A stretch of DNA of 60,095 bases from Flavobacterium sp. (GCA_039933615.1 JBDTNT010000169.1:1-60095), one strand, 5' to 3'; positions 6,143-13,857 are shown, counted from the first letter of the stretch. The notes: generated from the letters alone by a model not told the origin. A program made the numbers and translations.

Positions 6143-8296
6143 TTAGAATTTTAATGTCAGTCCAAGGAGAAAATTAATTCCTGCCTGCGGATAATAGTAC
6201 GGATATACATCATACATCGCTCCGTTTGACACGTATTTTTTGTCCAGAAAGTTATTGACCAAACCTGTTACCATAATTGATTTGAAAACAGTTTTTGGTT
6301 TTATTTCATAGGAAACATTCAGATCATTCACAAAATAATCAGCCAGTTTGGCTTCCGGCAATTCGATATTATTCATGTATTGTTCCCCAACAAATTTCTG
6401 TAATAACGAAAGGTGCAGACTCTCAATCGGACTGTAGACAATAATATTCCCGGCAATAACTGACGGAGAATAAGCAATATCTTTTGTTCCATAATTTTGA
6501 CCTTCAACAGCTAAATCTACATTTTTATTACTGCTTAATGTAAAGTTAGGACGCAGTATGATTTTTTCTGAAAGCACAATTGTAGCATCGACTTCAAGAC
6601 CTGAACGATAGCTTTTTTCGCTGTTAGAGCGAATCGGAGCCCCAACGTCGTCTAATCTTCCTGTCAGAATCAATTGATCCTTGTACCCCATATAATACAG
6701 GTTTGAATTCAATTGGAATTTTTCTGAGTTGAATCTCCAGCCTAATTCAAAATCATTTAATTTTTCCGGTTTTACATTCCCACCTTCGTAATCTGTCCTG
6801 TTGGGTTCCCGATTGGCTCTTGCGTAAGAAAAATACAAAGTGCTTTTTTGATTGATTTCATAATTTAAACCTGCTTTTGGATTAAAGAAATTAAATTGAT
6901 CGTCTACTAAACCGGTATCGTAACTATTGGCTTTATACGTCACTCTTCTGTATTGTAAATCTCCGTAGAAACTTAATTTCTCGGTGAATTGATAATTTGC
7001 CTTTGCAAAAATATTTCCATCTGTTTTTGCTGAATAATCATCGTAATAATGATCTCCTAATTCCGATTGGGAAGCATATCTTGCCCAGATCACTTTTCCG
7101 AAATGATCACCTTCATATTTATTCCAGCCTCCGCCAAAAATAACATCCAGCTTTTCCTCTTTATATTTCACAGAAAAAGTAGTCCCGTAAAAATCATTAT
7201 CCAACCATTTCTGACGCACTAAATCGGTTGTTGTTACAGCGCCTACAGGATTTAAATTGTAATCGGCCATATCAGCATCTTCTTTGTAATTTTCGTAATA
7301 TCCCTTTCCTTTTGTATAATGAAAGGCTAAGTTTGTGCTCCACTTATCAGAAAAAGACTCATTCCAATGCAATTGGTAATGATCCTGTTTGTAATTATCC
7401 GTTTCATTATCATAATAACGGGTAACACCTGCTTCATCTTTATATGCTCCGGCAGAATTGTAAGTACGATTTTCATTTAAAGTTTCAGCATCAATTCCAT
7501 TCCAGGATTGATATGTTTTCTCCGTTCCTCCAAAAACCAGGGCTTTGATTAAAGTCGTTTTACCAACATAAGTTCCTTGTAAAAAATAAGATTTTAGATC
7601 TGAACTTCCTCTGTCAATGTATCCATCAGATTTTATGGCAGACAGACGCCCCGCAATTTCAAAATGATCGTTTAGCAAACCGGTACTAAATTTTACCGTA
7701 TGTTTATGAGAATTGAAACTTCCGAAAGAATTAGAAATTTCACCATTGGCTTTAGAAGCATAATTGTCTGTCAGCATGTTTAAACTTGCGCCAAAGGCTC
7801 CCGATCCATTAGTTGACGTTCCAACACCACGCTGCAACTGTAAACTTTCTACTGAAGAAGCAAAATCGGGCATATTTACCCAAAATGTCCCCTGACTTTC
7901 CGCATCATTATACGGAATTCCGTTGATGGTTACATTCACTCTTGTAGCATCGCTCCCACGTACCCGGATTCCAGTGTACCCCATACCATTTCCAGCATCT
8001 GAAGTGGTAACTACTGATGGTAAATAGTTCATTAGAATTGGAATATCCTGACCCAGATTTCTGAACTTAATATCTTTTTTATCTAAGTTACTAAAACTAA
8101 CCGGTGTTTTCGTAGTAACCCGAACTGCCGAAACCAACACATCGTCAAGCTGATTGACTTTGGTTGAATCTTTTTCCTGAGCAGAAGAAATTAGAGTGAA
8201 GAAGAAATAGAATAGAATAAAGAAAATAGATTTTTGGTTCCACTTTGAACCTTTGAAACTTAGTACCTCAGTACCTTTTTGAAAAATAGTTTTCAT
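6143..8296 (-). CDS. TonB-dependent receptor, probably for thiamine or a precursor
   Basis: TonB-box-like LDDVLVSA, plug motif IRVRGS..RVNVTINGIP, C-terminal F; sits downstream of a TPP-like riboswitch. Confidence 0.9.
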   Translation of the reverse strand: MKTIFQKGTEVLSFKGSKWNQKSIFFILFYFFFTLISSAQEKDSTKVNQLDDVLVSAVRVTTKTPVSFSNLDKKDIKFRNLGQDIPILMNYLPSVVTTSDAGNGMGYTGIRVRGSDATRVNVTINGIPYNDAESQGTFWVNMPDFASSVESLQLQRGVGTSTNGSGAFGASLNMLTDNYASKANGEISNSFGSFNSHKHTVKFSTGLLNDHFEIAGRLSAIKSDGYIDRGSSDLKSYFLQGTYVGKTTLIKALVFGGTEKTYQSWNGIDAETLNENRTYNSAGAYKDEAGVTRYYDNETDNYKQDHYQLHWNESFSDKWSTNLAFHYTKGKGYYENYKEDADMADYNLNPVGAVTTTDLVRQKWLDNDFYGTTFSVKYKEEKLDVIFGGGWNKYEGDHFGKVIWARYASQSELGDHYYDDYSAKTDGNIFAKANYQFTEKLSFYGDLQYRRVTYKANSYDTGLVDDQFNFFNPKAGLNYEINQKSTLYFSYARANREPNRTDYEGGNVKPEKLNDFELGWRFNSEKFQLNSNLYYMGYKDQLILTGRLDDVGAPIRSNSEKSYRSGLEVDATIVLSEKIILRPNFTLSSNKNVDLAVEGQNYGTKDIAYSPSVIAGNIIVYSPIESLHLSLLQKFVGEQYMNNIELPEAKLADYFVNDLNVSYEIKPKTVFKSIMVTGLVNNFLDKKYVSNGAMYDVYPYYYPQAGINFLLGLTLKF

Positions 8297-8387
8297 CCGT
8301 AAAAAAATTACGAATAAAAGGGGGAATTATTCTTTTGTTAAATTAATAAATTTGTTTCACGACAAAATATAGTGCTTACGCTAAAAC

Positions 8388-8472
8388 TGTCGTTTTTTCC
8401 CTTAGCAACATTACTTGCTCAGGTTCTTTGGGTATGATCTCAGCTCGTTATTTAGAGCACCCCTTTGAGACG
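8388..8472 (-). ncRNA. TPP riboswitch (variant P4/P5 arm)
   Basis: Minus strand reads AAAGGGGUGCUC...GAGCUGAGAUCAUACCCAAAGAACCUGAGCAAGUAAUGUUGCUAAGGGAA, with the GGGGUG, CUGAGA, UACCC, ACCUGA, UAAUG and AGGGAA landmarks. Confidence 0.88.
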
Positions 8473-8475
8473 CGA

Positions 8476-8483
8476 CAAAAGTA
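8476..8483 (-). promoter_or_regulatory. Bacteroidota -7 promoter element for the riboswitch-TBDR transcript
   Basis: TACTTTTG (TAnnTTTG) immediately 5' of the aptamer. Confidence 0.6.
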
Positions 8484-8522: not shown

Positions 8523-8927
8523 CTAGTCGAAATCGGGTTTTTTACGGTTTTTCTTAACTTCAGAAATATTCTTTTTGTCTTTGATTCTTTTTCTAATAAC
8601 AGCTTTAGGAATTTTAGTCGCCTTACGAATTTTAGGAACGAATAATCCTTTTTTCATTATTTCTAAAAAACGTTTTATAACAATCTCTTTATTCTTAATC
8701 TGACTTCTGTCTTCATCACAATTTAAGATGAGAATATCTTCTGAAGTCAAACGTGAAGCCAGATTCAGTTTTAAAAGTTCTTTTTCCTCTTCAGACAAAA
8801 ATGCGGAAGCATTCAGATCAAAAGTCAAAACAACTTTTGAAGATACTTTGTTTACATTCTGCCCTCCCGCACCACTGCTCCTGACAGCTTTAAAACTTAA
8901 TTCTGATATGATTTTCTGAACTTCCAT
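8523..8927 (-). CDS. arfB: Alternative ribosome-rescue peptidyl-tRNA hydrolase ArfB
   Basis: RSSGAGGQNVNKV (GGQ), RSQ..N and a basic C-terminal tail; start overlaps the upstream stop (TAATG). Confidence 0.93.
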   Translation of the reverse strand: MEVQKIISELSFKAVRSSGAGGQNVNKVSSKVVLTFDLNASAFLSEEEKELLKLNLASRLTSEDILILNCDEDRSQIKNKEIVIKRFLEIMKKGLFVPKIRKATKIPKAVIRKRIKDKKNISEVKKNRKKPDFD

Positions 8928-11041
8928 TATTGTGGCTGATGTGCTGGTTTTAATAAATCGTTTACTGTTTTTACCGGATTGAAAGTAATCAGTGGGACTG
9001 CAACAAAAATAGTCAGCCAGTTTGCCATTGCGCCATTCCATAAGCCTGGCAGCTCGTAACTCTTTACTGTTTTACCGTCAACACTTTTTTCTACTATAAA
9101 ACCGGCTTTAGAGTCAACAAAATCTTTCAGGTCAAATTTTTCGTTTTTATAATTTTTTATTCCGCAAACTAAATCTACCGGATTGAAATGTGTAGCTGCC
9201 GATAAAATTTCAAGTTGTTTTGTATTTGTTAAATCTACCTGCGATGTTTCTACAATCTGAAGAGAGATTTTCCCTTTATCATTCATAACCCAAAATGGTC
9301 CTCCGCCTGGTTCTCCTTCATTTTTAACCATCCCACAAACTCTGATAGGTCTGTTTAAGAGTCCTTTAATTTTAATAATTTTATTTTCAAAAGTAAACTT
9401 ATTAAAGTCTTTAGTCATTTGGATATTCAGTTTTTTAGTCAAAAACCGAACAATATCATCCATATTATCTTCTTTGATTTCCTGTTTTTCAATGGCATTC
9501 AGATAACCAAAAACTTTTTTCTGAATCTCGATTAGAATTCCGGCTAAAGCTTTTTTATACAGCGTAATTTTATCAATATGATTCTGAATTACGTTATCAA
9601 TGTTTTTTATAAAGATAATATCTGCATCAAGTTCATTTAGATTTTCGATCAATGCGCCATGTCCGCCGGGTCTGAAAATTAATGCTTCATTTTTATCTCT
9701 TACAATTTTATTTTTAGAATCTACCGTAATAGAATCTGTGCTCTTATTTTGATAAGAGTAACCGATATTTATTAGCGTACCTGACCCCTTTTCTACTTTT
9801 GCTTTAATACCCTCAACTGCTTTTTCAAACAGACTTTGATGAGATTCCGATACTGTAAAATGTAAATTTGAAATTTGATTTGCTGTAGTATAATGCACAC
9901 ATTCATTCAAATGCTCTTCGATTGGAATTGCAGTATGTGTCTTATATTGGTGAAATGGCAAAACTGCTTTAGGCTTGTTTGCAAAGTCGAAATAATCAGT
10001 TGATAATAACAATTTTATAAAATAATAATTTTTAAAATCCCTTTCCAGAGTTTCAAAATCAGGATATATTTCTCTGAGTTTTTTATCTAAATCTTTAAAA
10101 AAAGGAAACTTATCCATTGCCACTATAAAAATAGACAAATTGCTGTCTTTTTTTCTGTTAATGTAAGCATTTATGGTTTCTTTCTGAATATCAAAATCAT
10201 TTAGAAAAGCCGTTAAAAACTTAAACATTCTGCTTGCTGCTCCGGAAGCGGGGACAAATTTCTTTAATTTTAATTTTTCTTTCTGATCATCAAAAAAATT
10301 AGCTTTTTCCTCAAAATCTTTTTCTGTCAGGCTTAAAATCCCATTATTAATAGTTGCCGGACTTATTAGATTACTTTTTGCAATTCCATTTTTAAAAATC
10401 TCCAATTGTTTTAAGATTTTCTCAAAAGAAATTCCATGCTCATAAACCTCAACAAAATCGGCAGACGAAAATCCTTTTTCTTTAGCAATTGTCAGTTTAT
10501 CGATAATTGCTGTAGCTTTTGCCAAACGGCTTTCTTTATTCCCTGAAAGCGTAATAAACGGTTTTTTGGTATCTATTAAAGTTTGTTTGAAAACAGAAAA
10601 GACTGTTTCTCGTCCATCAGGATTATCTCTGATATCATCTTTTTCCCAAGGGACGTCAATGTCGGTGAGAAAAATCAAATCGTAATCATGTTCCAATGCA
10701 GCTTCATTCAGAAGCGGATCACAGAATCCATAATACATTTCAGAAAAAACTTTGGTAACCATCAGGTTTGTATCGGAAAACAAATATTTTTTTGCCGCAG
10801 CAAGTTTCTGGTTTTCCAGTGCTGTCTGCCCGTAAGCAATTGGCATCATATCATCAGCTGTACAAATATGCTGATTCTCTTCCCATTTTTGCTGCAGGTA
10901 ATCACGTGCAAATTCAGGAACCCATTCGGTTTCGTAATAATCTGCAAGTTGTTTTGCCAATGTAGTTTTCCCTGTACTTTCAGGACCAAACAAAGCAATT
11001 TTTATGATAGCTGTTTTTTGCTGTCTAAGATTTTTCTCCAT
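8927..11041 (-). CDS. Fusion of a NadR-type P-loop kinase (AAA_28) and DUF4301 (nucleotidyltransferase-like), 704 aa
   Basis: N-terminal GPESTGKTT, EFAR.Y, DT and W.KD..R; C-terminal FVPASGAASRMF, RPGGHGAL, FIKNIDNV and FNPVKTVNDLL. Start at MEKNLRQ. Confidence 0.85.
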   Translation of the reverse strand: MEKNLRQQKTAIIKIALFGPESTGKTTLAKQLADYYETEWVPEFARDYLQQKWEENQHICTADDMMPIAYGQTALENQKLAAAKKYLFSDTNLMVTKVFSEMYYGFCDPLLNEAALEHDYDLIFLTDIDVPWEKDDIRDNPDGRETVFSVFKQTLIDTKKPFITLSGNKESRLAKATAIIDKLTIAKEKGFSSADFVEVYEHGISFEKILKQLEIFKNGIAKSNLISPATINNGILSLTEKDFEEKANFFDDQKEKLKLKKFVPASGAASRMFKFLTAFLNDFDIQKETINAYINRKKDSNLSIFIVAMDKFPFFKDLDKKLREIYPDFETLERDFKNYYFIKLLLSTDYFDFANKPKAVLPFHQYKTHTAIPIEEHLNECVHYTTANQISNLHFTVSESHQSLFEKAVEGIKAKVEKGSGTLINIGYSYQNKSTDSITVDSKNKIVRDKNEALIFRPGGHGALIENLNELDADIIFIKNIDNVIQNHIDKITLYKKALAGILIEIQKKVFGYLNAIEKQEIKEDNMDDIVRFLTKKLNIQMTKDFNKFTFENKIIKIKGLLNRPIRVCGMVKNEGEPGGGPFWVMNDKGKISLQIVETSQVDLTNTKQLEILSAATHFNPVDLVCGIKNYKNEKFDLKDFVDSKAGFIVEKSVDGKTVKSYELPGLWNGAMANWLTIFVAVPLITFNPVKTVNDLLKPAHQPQ

Positions 11042-11625
11042 TCTAAATAAGCTGAAATAGCCAAAATTGTAAAAATTAAATACTGCAGTGACAGCATCCC
11101 TAAGCCACGATAAGCGTAAAGAGGCACTACAATAATATCGCCAATAATCCAAAGTGTCCAGTTTTCGATTTTTTTCCTGGCCATGTACCACATTCCTGCA
11201 AAAAATATTCCTGATGAAATCATATCGACATAATTGTCGTTTTTAATTTCATAATCAAAATATTTATAAATCCCGAAAACTACAAAAACAGTTACAAAGA
11301 ACAGTAGAATCCCGATTATTTTTTCATTAAAATTAGTTCTTGTAATTGGCATATTATCTTCAGCTGTACCCCCTTTTCCCCAAACATACCAGCCATAAAT
11401 ACTCATAACAGAAAAATATCCATTAATGATCATATCACCAATATAGCCTGCAACATACAAAAGATAAACAGAAATTACCGTAGCAATTAAGCCTGTTGGA
11501 TATACCCAGATATTCTCTTTTTTCGCAAACCAGACGCTCAAAATTCCAAATACAAAAACTAAAAACTCTAAAGCAATATGCCATAAAGGAGCATTTTTGT
11601 AACTGTCGAGAAAAAAATCAATCAT
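11002..11625 (-). CDS. pnuC: PnuC family vitamin/nucleoside transporter
   Basis: Multi-TM; SIYGWYVW, MARKKIENW..WIIGD motifs. Confidence 0.92.
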   Translation of the reverse strand: MIDFFLDSYKNAPLWHIALEFLVFVFGILSVWFAKKENIWVYPTGLIATVISVYLLYVAGYIGDMIINGYFSVMSIYGWYVWGKGGTAEDNMPITRTNFNEKIIGILLFFVTVFVVFGIYKYFDYEIKNDNYVDMISSGIFFAGMWYMARKKIENWTLWIIGDIIVVPLYAYRGLGMLSLQYLIFTILAISAYLEWRKILDSKKQLS

Positions 11626-11661
11626 TATATCGGGTTGTTTTTTGGGTTGTTCTCCTTCATT

Positions 11662-12390
11662 CTATACTTCAAAAAAGCGACTGTTATTTTCAAAAGCAGT
11701 TCCAATCACGACCAAATCTGCTCCTGCATTATAGGCTTTTTGAATTCCCTGCAAATCTACAATTCCTCCACCAACAATTATAGGAATTTCAATATTTTGG
11801 GCAATTAACTCTATCATTTCTAACGGAACAGCTTTTTTTGCCCCACTTCCGGCTTCGAGATAGACTAATTTATTCCCCAGCATTTCACCTGCTTGTGCAG
11901 TTGCCAAAACGAGGTCAAGATCCTTACGACCTAACGGTTCTGTTTTACTTACTCTGGCTACAGCAGTTTCATTTCCGCTTTCTATTAAAATATATCCTGT
12001 TGAAATAACCTCAAGATTTGTTTTTTTAAGAATTGGTGCTGCCTGAACCTGGTATTCTATTAAATAATCAGCGTTTCGGCCAGATAACAAAGACAAGAAC
12101 AAAATGGCATCGGCCTGAGGTGAAATCTGTGACGGATCTCCTGGAAATATAACAACGGGCAAGTTTGTTTTTTGTTTCAATTCTGTCATTAATTCTTCTA
12201 AAATAGCAGCCTTAACAATGCTCCCTCCAACAAAAATATGAGTTGCAGGTGACTCCTTTATTTTAAGCAGAAGATGATCTAAATTTTCCCATACAATTTT
12301 ATCAGGATCCAAAAGGATCGCTAGCAGTTTTTGTCCATCAATCTTGGCCTGGATAATTTGCTGGTAAATATGGGGTATTTTTTGTCTCAT
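11662..12390 (-). CDS. Geranylgeranylglyceryl/heptaprenylglyceryl phosphate synthase (group II GGGPS)
   Basis: LLDPDK, FVGGS, FPG, LSGRN, YLEAGSGA, VGGGI and VIGTAFE motifs. Confidence 0.92.
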   Translation of the reverse strand: MRQKIPHIYQQIIQAKIDGQKLLAILLDPDKIVWENLDHLLLKIKESPATHIFVGGSIVKAAILEELMTELKQKTNLPVVIFPGDPSQISPQADAILFLSLLSGRNADYLIEYQVQAAPILKKTNLEVISTGYILIESGNETAVARVSKTEPLGRKDLDLVLATAQAGEMLGNKLVYLEAGSGAKKAVPLEMIELIAQNIEIPIIVGGGIVDLQGIQKAYNAGADLVVIGTAFENNSRFFEV

Positions 12391-12485: not shown

Positions 12486-13082
12486 ATGATTGCTGCCGAT
12501 CTTCTGGAAAAATATGGTGCCTTAAAGAAATTCTACGGAAAAACCTCAACTGTTTTTGACGAAGGAAAATTACCCACACATTATTATCAGATTGTTTCCG
12601 GTGAAATAAAAATGAACAATTACAATGATGACGGGCGGGAATTTATTCAGGGGATTTTCTATAAAGGTCAGTCTTTCGGAGAGCCTCCTTTGTTCTTAAA
12701 TCAAAATTATCCGGCCAGTGCAGTTGCTGTTGAAGATACCCAAATTCTATGTCTTCCAAAATTAAATTTCATGAACTTGTTAGAAGAGAATCCGGCAGTC
12801 AGTATTCAAATAATCGAAAATTTAGCCCAGCGTTTGTATTATAAATCAGTTATGGCAGCCGAAATGTCAACTCAGGAACCCGAACATCGTGTTTTAAAAC
12901 TGATTGATCACGGAATTGCTTATTTTAATTTCAAAAAAGATGACAACGGTTACCTGATTAATTTTACGAGACAGCAAATTGGTGACCTGACCGGTTTACG
13001 GGTAGAAACCGTTATCAGAACTATAAAGGCATTGGAAAAGAAAGGTGTTTTAAAAATAATCAACAGAAAAGTATATCGATAA
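12486..13082 (+). CDS. Crp/Fnr family transcriptional regulator
   Basis: cNMP-binding fold (SFGEPPL) and HTH TRQQIGDLTGLRVETVIRT. Confidence 0.92.
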   Translation: MIAADLLEKYGALKKFYGKTSTVFDEGKLPTHYYQIVSGEIKMNNYNDDGREFIQGIFYKGQSFGEPPLFLNQNYPASAVAVEDTQILCLPKLNFMNLLEENPAVSIQIIENLAQRLYYKSVMAAEMSTQEPEHRVLKLIDHGIAYFNFKKDDNGYLINFTRQQIGDLTGLRVETVIRTIKALEKKGVLKIINRKVYR

Positions 13083-13093
13083 AAAAGTTCTTG

Positions 13094-13115
13094 TTTTATG
13101 ATTTAAGTCATAAAA
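13094..13115. promoter_or_regulatory. Putative Crp/Fnr operator
   Basis: Palindrome TTTTATGA-N6-TCATAAAA about 20 bp upstream of a TAAATTTG -7 element. Confidence 0.65.
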
Positions 13116-13162
13116 TGATGGTGTATGATGGTGGTAAATTTGCACTATAAAACACATATATC

Positions 13163-13450
13163 ATGACACTTTATACCACAACACTCGAAAATTTCAACAA
13201 AAGTTACATTGGTTCGGCTACGATGGCAATAATTGGACAAAGCTGTCTGGGAGCAGTTGCAGCAATGTTTGTACTTGCTAATGGAACATCACTAACACAA
13301 ATGATTCAATTGGCGATTATCGTATTTACCAATATATTTGCCAACACTTCTATTCTGGCACAAATGAGCCACAAAACGGTTTTTAACTTAATAATAACCA
13401 GCGTATTTTTCAGTACTTTATTTATTATTATCAACAATGTTATACGATGA
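13163..13450 (+). CDS. Small membrane protein (about 3 TM)
   Basis: Hydrophobic 95 aa with QSCLG motif; ATGA overlap with the globin gene. Confidence 0.75.
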   Translation: MTLYTTTLENFNKSYIGSATMAIIGQSCLGAVAAMFVLANGTSLTQMIQLAIIVFTNIFANTSILAQMSHKTVFNLIITSVFFSTLFIIINNVIR

Positions 13451-13857
13451 GAAAGCAAATAGAAAGCAGAGCTGATCTTGAAGTTCTGGTTCATACTTTT
13501 TATACCAAAATAAGAGCCGATGCAGAAATTGGCTTTTATTTTAATACAATGATAAAAGACTGGGATGCCCATCTGGAAAAACTGACTGATTTTTGGGAGA
13601 CCAATTTATTTGTGGTCAAAAAGTATAAAGGGAATCCACAGGAAGTCCACAATGAAGTCGATGCACATTTTGACGGCAAAATCACCTCAAATGAATTTGG
13701 AATCTGGCTCAACTACTGGTTTCAGACTCTGGAAGAACTTTTTGAAGGAGAAAATGTAGAAACGCTAAAAAGACGCGCCAGAAAAATGGGTACTTTTCTT
13801 TTTGTAAGTATGTTTGAGCATAGAAAAAAATTGAGTGAGGCTGACAGGCAATTTTAA
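13447..13857 (+). CDS. Group III truncated haemoglobin
   Basis: LV..FY.KIR.D..IG.YF, W..HL.KL.DFW, Y.GNP...H and F..WL..W motifs. Confidence 0.9.
   Translation: MRKQIESRADLEVLVHTFYTKIRADAEIGFYFNTMIKDWDAHLEKLTDFWETNLFVVKKYKGNPQEVHNEVDAHFDGKITSNEFGIWLNYWFQTLEELFEGENVETLKRRARKMGTFLFVSMFEHRKKLSEADRQF

What the first reader, a model, noticed from the sequence alone, without database searches (positions are those of the whole stretch)
8523..12390. Possible undescribed salvage pathway: PnuC importer plus a NadR-type kinase fused to a UGPase-like DUF4301 domain
Seen: GGGPS, pnuC, the fusion and arfB are tightly packed (36 bp gap, 40 bp overlap, TAATG overlap). The kinase lacks the HTH and HxGH NMN-adenylyltransferase domains of enterobacterial NadR. 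Its partner domain has, in order, ASGAASRM, PGGHG, FIKNIDN, GGG, HFN and FNPVKTVNDLL, paralleling the eukaryote-type UGPase/UAP motifs GGLGTSM, PPGHG, FVSNIDN, KGG, FN and FLPVKTTSDLL. Inference: import, phosphorylation and then nucleotidyl transfer on one substrate. DUF4301 may be a non-orthologous replacement for NMNAT, or may activate a thiamine-related or sugar-phosphate product, with the neighbouring riboswitch-controlled TBDR as the outer-membrane step. No thiamine pyrophosphokinase is present in the window.
Basis: partly seen in the sequence, partly recalled or inferred. Interest (0 to 1): 0.75.

Follow-up and report, generated by a model that had tools for sequence, protein, structure and literature searches.

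The report
Vitamin kinase fused to UDP-sugar enzyme
A Flavobacterium gene joins a small kinase to an uncharacterised domain (DUF4301) predicted to fold like the enzymes that make UDP-glucose, but related genomes lose either half without the other, so they likely do separate jobs: the kinase likely traps imported vitamin B1 and DUF4301 is likely a general sugar-activating enzyme.

Summary
The anatomy is as described: GGGPS, pnu, a 704-aa kinase-DUF4301 fusion and arfB, then a TPP riboswitch and a TonB-dependent receptor. DUF4301 is predicted to have the eukaryote-type UDP-sugar pyrophosphorylase fold (Z 21.9 to human UGPase). The proposed single-substrate pathway is not supported. This genome has NadD, thiamine pyrophosphokinase (TPK), ThiL and PncC elsewhere. 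The kinase was not found in 39 of 129 resolved DUF4301-bearing Flavobacterium, two genomes keep it without DUF4301, and DUF4301 is in 291 of 301 Bacteroidales, with no Pnu or kinase in the 20 loci read. Best reading: Pnu plus kinase import and trap thiamine. The kinase tracks the absence of TPK, and a thiamine-binding protein and TPP riboswitch flank the cassette. DUF4301 is likely an independent UDP-hexose pyrophosphorylase, a candidate for the UGPase of a phylum nearly without galU (3 of 251). A blind test of that candidate failed (galU in 0 of 5 DUF4301-less genomes). The fusion arose at least twice from overlapping neighbours. The scan reported this cassette before on other DNA (seven notes). 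No activity is shown.

The parts
11662..12390 (-). GGGPS (geranylgeranylglyceryl phosphate synthase family), 242 aa; syntenic neighbour, often absent from the cassette
   Evidence: present in 29 of 51 split and 32 of 45 fused loci, some cut by contig ends
11002..11625 (-). Pnu-family vitamin channel, 207 aa; likely thiamine (PnuT-like) by context
   Evidence: PF04973 E 2e-48; TIGR01528 over cut-off; context; tree
8927..11041 (-). 704-aa fusion gene: NadR-type kinase plus DUF4301
   Evidence: full-length model pLDDT 94, pTM 0.87
10526..11002 (-). kinase domain (AAA_28, residues 14-172) with intact Walker A GPESTGKT, FSDT and PWEKDDIR motifs; likely thiamine kinase
   Evidence: complementarity with TPK
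8936..10465 (-). DUF4301 domain (residues 193-702), predicted eukaryote-type UDP-sugar pyrophosphorylase
8523..8927 (-). arfB ribosome-rescue factor, 134 aa; syntenic neighbour
   Evidence: NF006718 over cut-off
8476..8483 (-). TACTTTTG, a match to the Bacteroidota -7 promoter box (consensus recalled), just upstream of the riboswitch; weak evidence
   Evidence: 1 match of the 12-mer searched; 15 of 100 shuffles had at least one
8381..8474 (-). TPP riboswitch aptamer in front of the receptor gene
   Evidence: RF00059 full-length match, E 8e-6, below gathering score; same position in many relatives by a motif scan
6143..8296 (-). TonB-dependent receptor, 717 aa; likely outer-membrane thiamine transporter
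   Evidence: close homolog in 45 of 51 split loci

Best explanation
The gene carries two enzymes that likely work independently: the Pnu channel and the NadR-type kinase likely import thiamine and trap it as thiamine monophosphate, while DUF4301, predicted to have the eukaryote-type UDP-sugar pyrophosphorylase fold, likely makes a UDP-hexose (most likely UDP-glucose) from UTP and a sugar-1-phosphate for general glycan synthesis. Inferred route: the riboswitch-controlled TonB receptor brings thiamine across the outer membrane, Pnu lets it diffuse in, the kinase phosphorylates it and ThiL makes TPP. In most Flavobacteriaceae the kinase and DUF4301 are separate, overlapping genes behind a thiamine-binding protein and pnu (shown). 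A small indel at that stop/start overlap would fuse them (inferred); the tree needs at least two fusions. Most Flavobacterium also have TPK (shown), which would make the kinase redundant, and it has been deleted or eroded repeatedly while DUF4301 stayed intact (shown). Odds by step: independence about 0.8, thiamine about 0.7, UDP-hexose product about 0.75, UDP-glucose specifically about 0.5.
For: Fold: model pLDDT 96. VIA Z 21.9 to human UGPase (rmsd 3.2, 331 aligned), 21.5 to UAP, 18.9 to USP, 17.0 to GlmU; Foldseek E down to 2e-10, all listed rows UAP, UGPase or USP. Columns that map by motif order to human K127, G222/H223, N251/D253, N328 and K396 (PMC5381698 passages) are conserved in 138-140 of 140 DUF4301 sequences: K358, G460/H461, N480/D482, N620, K691. 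Independence: among 150 Flavobacterium, DUF+kinase+ 90, DUF+kinase- 39, DUF-kinase+ 2, both missing 14, 5 unresolved. In-frame deletions and a Walker-A-less relic are visible; the deletion state needs 5 changes on the tree, at least 4 forced by strong branches. DUF4301 is in 291 of 301 Bacteroidales, with no Pnu, kinase or TPK in 20 loci read. NadD, PncC, ThiL and TPK are in this genome. Thiamine: a Thiamine_BP-type gene precedes pnu in 48 of 51 split loci; TPP riboswitch and receptor follow. All 9 TPK-less Flavobacterium keep the kinase with its motif region matched, and 53 of 53 kinase-less ones have a TPK match (Fisher 0.026). TPK was found in 2 of 57 mostly marine Flavobacteriaceae, one being the only genome of that set with pnu but no kinase at the locus. 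In 41 further Bacteroidota, 0 of 7 TPK-positive genomes versus 23 of 31 TPK-negative genomes with a Pnu have a kinase-only gene beside Pnu (p 0.0005). galU: none over cut-off here and 3 of 251 in the phylum sample.
Against: No activity was measured. Within Flavobacteriaceae the cassette is very stable (pnu-kinase-DUF4301 in 51 split and 45 fused loci), moves as a block to new sites (L052, L082, L089) and fused at least twice. The full-length model has pTM 0.87 with one continuous helix (169-188) across the junction. 14 of 16 DUF-less Flavobacterium also lack the kinase. The Pnu tree does not join this Pnu with the TPK-linked Bacteroidales PnuT (L191, long branch), and four kinase-only loci fall outside the 48-row group, one of them (L187) among the full-NadR-linked channels. 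G101 lacks the kinase and has a frameshifted TPK. 7 TPK-negative genomes have Pnu with no adjacent kinase. The kinase's solved relatives are all NadR. For UDP-glucose: 198 of 251 phylum genomes have none of DUF4301, galU or PF01704, 0 of 5 DUF-less Bacteroidales had galU in a blind test, and UGPase and UAP tie in the fold search. 67 of the 88 long-frame genomes were called fused from frame length alone; kinase absence rests on one protein query; this genome is 81% complete; kin are not independent, so the p values overstate.
Confidence: 0.55

Rival explanations
1. One reading: Pnu imports nicotinamide riboside, the kinase makes NMN, and DUF4301 replaces NMNAT to make NAD.
For: Pnu scores over the PnuC cut-off; the kinase is NadR-like and lacks the NMNAT domain; DUF4301 has a nucleotidyltransferase fold; nadA was not found in this 81% complete genome.
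Against: NadD and PncC are present, so NMN has a known route. The fold matches are sugar-1-phosphate uridylyltransferases. DUF4301 persists without the kinase in 39 Flavobacterium and had no Pnu or kinase beside it in 20 of 20 Bacteroidales loci. Where a full NadR occurs in these genomes it sits beside a different Pnu clade (L148, L177, L186).
Confidence: 0.05
2. Pnu and the kinase salvage nicotinamide riboside (NMN then goes through PncC, NadD and NadE); DUF4301 is independent, as in the best explanation.
For: Family assignments point to PnuC and NadR; PncC and NadD are present; the riboswitch lies after the operon, not before pnu; the Pnu tree does not join the Bacteroidales PnuT.
Against: It does not explain the thiamine-binding gene before pnu in 48 of 51 split loci, the TPP riboswitch and receptor directly after the kinase in distant families (L168, L209), or the kinase tracking TPK absence.
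Confidence: 0.17
3. In Flavobacteriaceae the link is functional: DUF4301 acts on the kinase's product (a thiamine phosphate or a sugar phosphate), or the kinase domain regulates DUF4301.
For: Stable cassette, block transfers and at least two fusions; ordered junction in the model, pTM 0.87; DUF loss mostly coincides with kinase loss, 14 of 16.
Against: Repeated kinase deletion leaves DUF4301 full-length with unchanged profile scores. The kinase survives DUF loss in G099, G128, G198, G334 and G366. Split genes overlap by 1-11 bases in 30 of 39 loci measured, so fusion is mechanically easy. The same kinase is in frame with an aldose epimerase in another lineage (L172). Deleting a fused gene removes both halves at once.
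Confidence: 0.1
4. DUF4301 is independent of the kinase but makes UDP-GlcNAc, filling the GlmU gap in gut Bacteroidales.
For: Top Foldseek rows are UAP. The alternative GlmU (TIGR03991) is in 74 of 80 genomes and missing in 6 Bacteroidales that all carry DUF4301; canonical GlmU is under cut-off in the 5 of these tested. 3 of 5 DUF-less Bacteroidales have the alternative GlmU. DUF4301 is kept in 1.0 and 1.2 Mb genomes. A eukaryote-like UAP (NagU) is reported in Staphylococcus (bioRxiv 10.64898/2026.06.23.733835, passages).
Against: This genome has the alternative GlmU. 2 of 5 DUF-less Bacteroidales have neither. Capnocytophaga canimorsus has an essential monofunctional GlcNAc-1-P uridyltransferase, with orthologs reported in 30 of 45 Bacteroidetes genera (PMC4358021 passages); I did not test which family that protein belongs to, and saw DUF4301 only in another Capnocytophaga species (L127).
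Confidence: 0.13

Closest known systems
Eukaryote-type UDP-sugar pyrophosphorylases (Pfam UDPGP PF01704: UGPase 3r2w/2icy, UAP 8yp3/6tn3, USP 3oh0; bacterial NagU)
   Same: Predicted fold (Z 19-22 over 306-345 residues), order of motifs, and conserved counterparts of the phosphate- and sugar-binding residues.
   Different: 10-20% identity; no PF01704 match; no PDB sequence match even with a 140-sequence profile; about 85 extra residues between the nucleotide-binding loop and the PK lysine; KGG reads GEPGGG; the structural match ends at the model's C-terminus (about residue 400-460 of the longer eukaryotic chains); substrate unknown.
Bacteroides thiamine uptake system OMthi (BT2390) - pnuT (BT2396) - tnr3 (BT2397) with TPP riboswitch (PMC5613172)
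   Same: TPP riboswitch, TonB receptor, Pnu channel and a trapping enzyme next to pnu.
   Different: The trapping gene here is a NadR-type P-loop kinase, not a thiamine pyrophosphokinase; the riboswitch precedes the receptor only; the Pnu does not group with the TPK-linked one in my tree.
PnuC-NadR nicotinamide riboside salvage (H. influenzae 1lw7, L. lactis 6gye)
   Same: Pnu channel followed by an AAA_28 kinase with the same P-loop motifs.
   Different: No NMN adenylyltransferase or HTH domain; thiamine-linked context; the full NadR genes seen in these genomes sit with another Pnu clade.

Membership tests
Eukaryote-type UDP-sugar pyrophosphorylase (PF01704) | UDPGP-type GT-A fold | tested here: met
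   Model pLDDT 96; VIA Z 21.9, rmsd 3.2, 331 aligned; Foldseek E 2e-10
Eukaryote-type UDP-sugar pyrophosphorylase (PF01704) | Conserved catalytic and substrate-binding residues (human K127, G222, H223, N251, D253, N328, K396) | tested here: met
   Counterparts assigned by motif order, not by a residue-level superposition, are conserved in 138-140 of 140 rows
Eukaryote-type UDP-sugar pyrophosphorylase (PF01704) | Sequence match to the PF01704 profile | tested here: not met
   No PF01704 hit at E 0.01; profile-profile comparison with a bacterial PF01704 alignment gave E 0.045, probability 1%. It works like one by fold but is not filed in the Pfam family.
Eukaryote-type UDP-sugar pyrophosphorylase (PF01704) | UTP + sugar-1-phosphate gives UDP-sugar + PPi | not testable with these tools
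   Needs an assay
NadR (bifunctional NR kinase / NMNAT) | AAA_28 P-loop kinase domain with intact motifs | tested here: met
NadR (bifunctional NR kinase / NMNAT) | HxGH adenylyltransferase domain; score over the family cut-off | tested here: not met
   No HxGH; 95.7 bits against a cut-off of 341, C-terminal half only
NadR (bifunctional NR kinase / NMNAT) | Nicotinamide riboside is the kinase substrate | not testable with these tools
   Context points to thiamine instead
PnuT thiamine uptake system | Pnu gene linked to a TPP riboswitch and a TonB receptor | tested here: met
   the riboswitch is below Rfam's gathering score and follows the operon
PnuT thiamine uptake system | Adjacent thiamine pyrophosphokinase (tnr3) | tested here: not met
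   TPK is on another contig; a NadR-type kinase takes that position
PnuT thiamine uptake system | Channel groups with TPK-linked PnuT | tested here: inconclusive
   The one TPK-adjacent Pnu in the tree (L191) is a long branch outside the window's group
PnuT thiamine uptake system | Thiamine transport | not testable with these tools
   Needs uptake or growth assays
GalU (bacterial UGPase) / GlmU | Match to TIGR01099, TIGR01173 or TIGR03991 | tested here: not met
   The fusion matches none in NCBIfam at E 0.01; GalU and GlmU structures rank below the eukaryote-type enzymes

The most novel reading that the evidence does not exclude
DUF4301 is the unidentified UDP-glucose (or broad UDP-sugar) pyrophosphorylase of Bacteroidales and Flavobacteriaceae: a fourth, deeply diverged branch of the eukaryote-type family, a near-universal gene of gut Bacteroidales that lack galU. 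Alongside it, the stand-alone NadR-type kinase of Bacteroidota is a new thiamine kinase that substitutes for thiamine pyrophosphokinase.
Probability: 0.35. Interest if true: 0.7.

Novelty: new variant of a known kind. Interest (0 to 1): 0.45.

Why it matters
If DUF4301 makes UDP-glucose or another UDP-sugar, it names a core step of glycan, capsule and glycogen synthesis in Bacteroidales, where galU is nearly missing from the phylum sample and where the activity has been measured in Prevotella extracts (via review PMC4432691). If the kinase is a thiamine kinase, the database labels 'nicotinamide riboside kinase' and PnuC are wrong for a large part of Bacteroidota, which changes how vitamin B1 and B3 exchange is inferred from marine, soil and gut genomes. 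Both are testable with single purified proteins.

Tried and rejected
Sequence searches of DUF4301 against solved structures gave nothing credible. The ESM Atlas gave no usable hit. Profile-profile comparison with a bacterial PF01704 alignment was weak, E 0.045. DUF4301 as partner of GT3 glycogen synthase: 8 of 13 GT3 genomes have DUF4301, but 36 of 44 DUF4301 genomes lack GT3, and this genome has a glgC-glgA-like pair; rejected as the sole role. galU/PF01704 complementarity: 0 of 44 versus 9 of 207, p 0.37, and the blind test failed, 0 of 5. Alternative-GlmU complementarity: blind test 3 of 5; left as a rival. Neighbourhood gave no sugar-pathway clue: neighbours of 30 loci and of 20 Bacteroidales loci were mixed, relA and STAS genes the only repeats. 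GGGPS as pathway partner: absent from many cassettes; rejected. The sigma-70 promoter and terminator scan was uninformative. No RNA holder listed. PMC5029205 (vitamin B1 in marine Flavobacteria) is not held. No complex prediction was run. Rows dropped: 28 distant 'alone' rows left out of the DUF4301 tree; 5 of 150 Flavobacterium unresolved in the 2x2 tables; L092 is cut by its contig end, so 'alone' is unsure there.
Full report
Observation. The 704-aa protein has an AAA_28 kinase domain at 14-172 and DUF4301 at 193-702; it matches only the C-terminal half of the NadR models and has no HxGH. 118 of the 119 listed relatives have both domains, and those that are named are almost all Flavobacterium. 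A TPP riboswitch (E 8e-6, under the gathering score) lies 48 bases after arfB and 84 bases before the TonB receptor, so it is placed to control the receptor, not pnu.

Fold. A model from a 140-sequence alignment reached pLDDT 96. Foldseek listed only UAP, UGPase and USP structures (best E 2e-10). The wider search ranked human UGPase Z 21.9 (rmsd 3.2, 331 aligned), UAP 21.5, USP 18.9, then GlmU 17.0 and GalU 15.6. Human UGPase residues K127, G222, H223, N251, D253, N328 and K396 are named as active-site residues in PMC5381698 (passages). Their counterparts by motif order (K358, G460, H461, N480, D482, N620, K691) are conserved in 138-140 of 140 DUF4301 rows. This mapping is inference, not a superposition. 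Sequence methods do not see the kinship. I recall that InterPro places DUF4301 in the nucleotide-diphospho-sugar transferase superfamily; this was not checked.

No gap to fill in this genome. NadD, CinA/PncC (54), TPK (40), ThiL (41), ThiC (55) and the alternative GlmU (89) score over their cut-offs. galU does not (38) and nadA was not found (56); the assembly is 81% complete.

Do the halves travel together? DUF4301 was found in 134 of 150 Flavobacterium. I searched the kinase in 59 genomes chosen for a short or intermediate frame or for lacking DUF4301 and called 88 long-frame genomes fused, 21 of them checked by reading the locus. Result: both 90, DUF only 39, kinase only 2, neither 14, unresolved 5. 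Kinase-less genes start with the kinase's first residues joined to DUF4301, and five loci keep an eroded relic without Walker A. On a FastTree tree of 130 DUF4301 domains (28 distant rows left out), the deletion state needs 5 changes, at least 4 forced; the relic is one clade; and fusions occur in Flavobacterium and separately in Croceivirga/Flagellimonas. Other Flavobacteriaceae mostly have thiamine-binding protein, pnu, kinase and DUF4301 as separate genes, with kinase and DUF4301 overlapping in 30 of 39 loci measured. Outside the family, 29 loci from the phylum sample and 20 Bacteroidales loci had no Pnu or kinase; one locus labelled Ichthyobacteriaceae (L134) does keep the cassette. Pnu-kinase pairs exist in genomes where DUF4301 was not found, or far from it. 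Against independence: the cassette is stable in the family, has moved as a block, fused twice, and the full-length model shows an ordered junction (pTM 0.87).

What does the kinase phosphorylate? Pnu channels are facilitators that rely on a trapping kinase (PMC5749112: abstract, introduction and passages), and in Bacteroides the partner of pnuT is tnr3 (PMC5613172 passages). Three sets show the kinase where TPK is missing. In Flavobacterium, TPK was found in 141 of 150; all 9 without it keep the kinase, and all 53 kinase-less genomes have a TPK match, though G101's is frameshifted (p 0.026). In 57 mostly marine Flavobacteriaceae, TPK was found in 2: one has both, the other is the only one with pnu but no kinase at the locus. 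In 41 other Bacteroidota, 0 of 7 TPK-positive genomes and 23 of 31 TPK-negative genomes with a Pnu have a kinase-only gene next to Pnu; one has full NadR and 7 have no adjacent kinase (p 0.0005). I chose these genomes from earlier hits and they are kin, so the p values overstate. A thiamine-binding-type gene precedes pnu in 48 of 51 split loci, though it is absent here. The Pnu tree separates the full-NadR-linked channels from the window's group but does not join the window's Pnu to the TPK-linked one, and some kinase-only loci fall outside. A Baltic metatranscriptome paper lists omr1 and pnuC as the B1 uptake genes expressed by Bacteroidetes (PMC12442306 passages). ThiL was tested only in this genome.

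What does DUF4301 make? In 251 phylum genomes DUF4301 was in 44, galU in 3 and PF01704 in 7, never together with DUF4301, but 198 have none of the three. DUF4301 is in 291 of 301 Bacteroidales, including 1.0 and 1.2 Mb genomes, which fits a housekeeping enzyme. UGPase activity feeding glycogen is reported for Prevotella bryantii (review PMC4432691 passages; the primary paper was not read), and a Prevotella DUF4301 protein appears in a rumen proteome table (PMC7035244). Two blind tests on DUF-less Bacteroidales did not settle it: galU 0 of 5, alternative GlmU 3 of 5. Six Bacteroidales lack the alternative GlmU and all have DUF4301, but a separate monofunctional GlcNAc-1-P uridyltransferase is described in Capnocytophaga (PMC4358021 passages; its Figure S4 is an image I could not see and may bear on this). 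The plant families differ in sugar range and all prefer UTP (PMC6329318 passages). UDP-glucose is my best guess at about even odds.

Literature and earlier notes. 'DUF4301' occurs in one paper of the held library, as a table row. Searches listed no paper whose title or abstract start assigns a function to DUF4301 or thiamine kinase activity to this kinase; subscription journals are mostly not held. PMC11046441, PMC6593275 and the NagU preprint were read as passages. Seven earlier notes of this scan describe the same cassette in other genomes; six lean as I do, one keeps the NAD reading. They gave me the thiamine lead; the counts above are my own.

Verdict. A real fusion and a real, deeply diverged UDP-sugar-pyrophosphorylase-like family, but most likely not one salvage pathway. 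New variant of a known kind; interest 0.45.

Noticed in passing
L148:2322-5960 (G053): A second cassette, TonB receptor - pnu - 346-aa full-length NadR-like gene, in a Flavobacterium whose fused kinase has decayed; it looks like a separate NR salvage unit.
   Followed up: partly
L223, L224, L227, L231, L237: Several DUF4301-less Flavobacterium have a 199-aa Pnu of another type directly behind a TPP-riboswitch-like motif.
   Followed up: no
L172:3-1325: The same kinase is in one frame with an aldose 1-epimerase domain (441 aa, open at the locus end) in another family.
   Followed up: partly
L248-L252, L258, L006: DUF4301 is divergently adjacent to relA/spoT in 6 of 20 Bacteroidales loci and one more locus.
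   Followed up: no
L021, L023, L029, L032, L033: DUF4301 lies next to STAS genes, mostly with a SpoIIE/response-regulator gene, in other classes of the phylum; L023 also has a GT2 glycosyltransferase.
   Followed up: no
L007, L012, L009: Shortened DUF4301 proteins (448-469 aa) with an internal gap in the profile match in L007 and L012; L012 sits beside two UDP-sugar dehydrogenase genes.
   Followed up: no
L055:1-2190; G206 C1 near 1.397-1.401 Mb: Proteins in open frames of about 1,110 aa with a C-terminal PF01704-like part occur in a few Bacteroidota; in G206 one lies about 3 kb from a galU-like gene.
   Followed up: no
G612, G722: Two Bacteroidales of one genus in which neither DUF4301, the alternative GlmU nor galU was found.
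   Followed up: no
L200:2165-2823 (G101): Thiamine pyrophosphokinase gene in two frames, near a 7-base homopolymer, in a kinase-less genome; pseudogene or sequencing error.
   Followed up: partly
window 12486-13857: Crp-family regulator, a 95-aa membrane-type ORF and a truncated-globin-like gene, inserted between GGGPS and the upstream genes in some Flavobacterium only.
   Followed up: no
L184:890-1471, L188:863-1471: In two genomes of a sister family the orthologous Pnu is followed by a 194-203 aa ORF with no Pfam match instead of the kinase.
   Followed up: no
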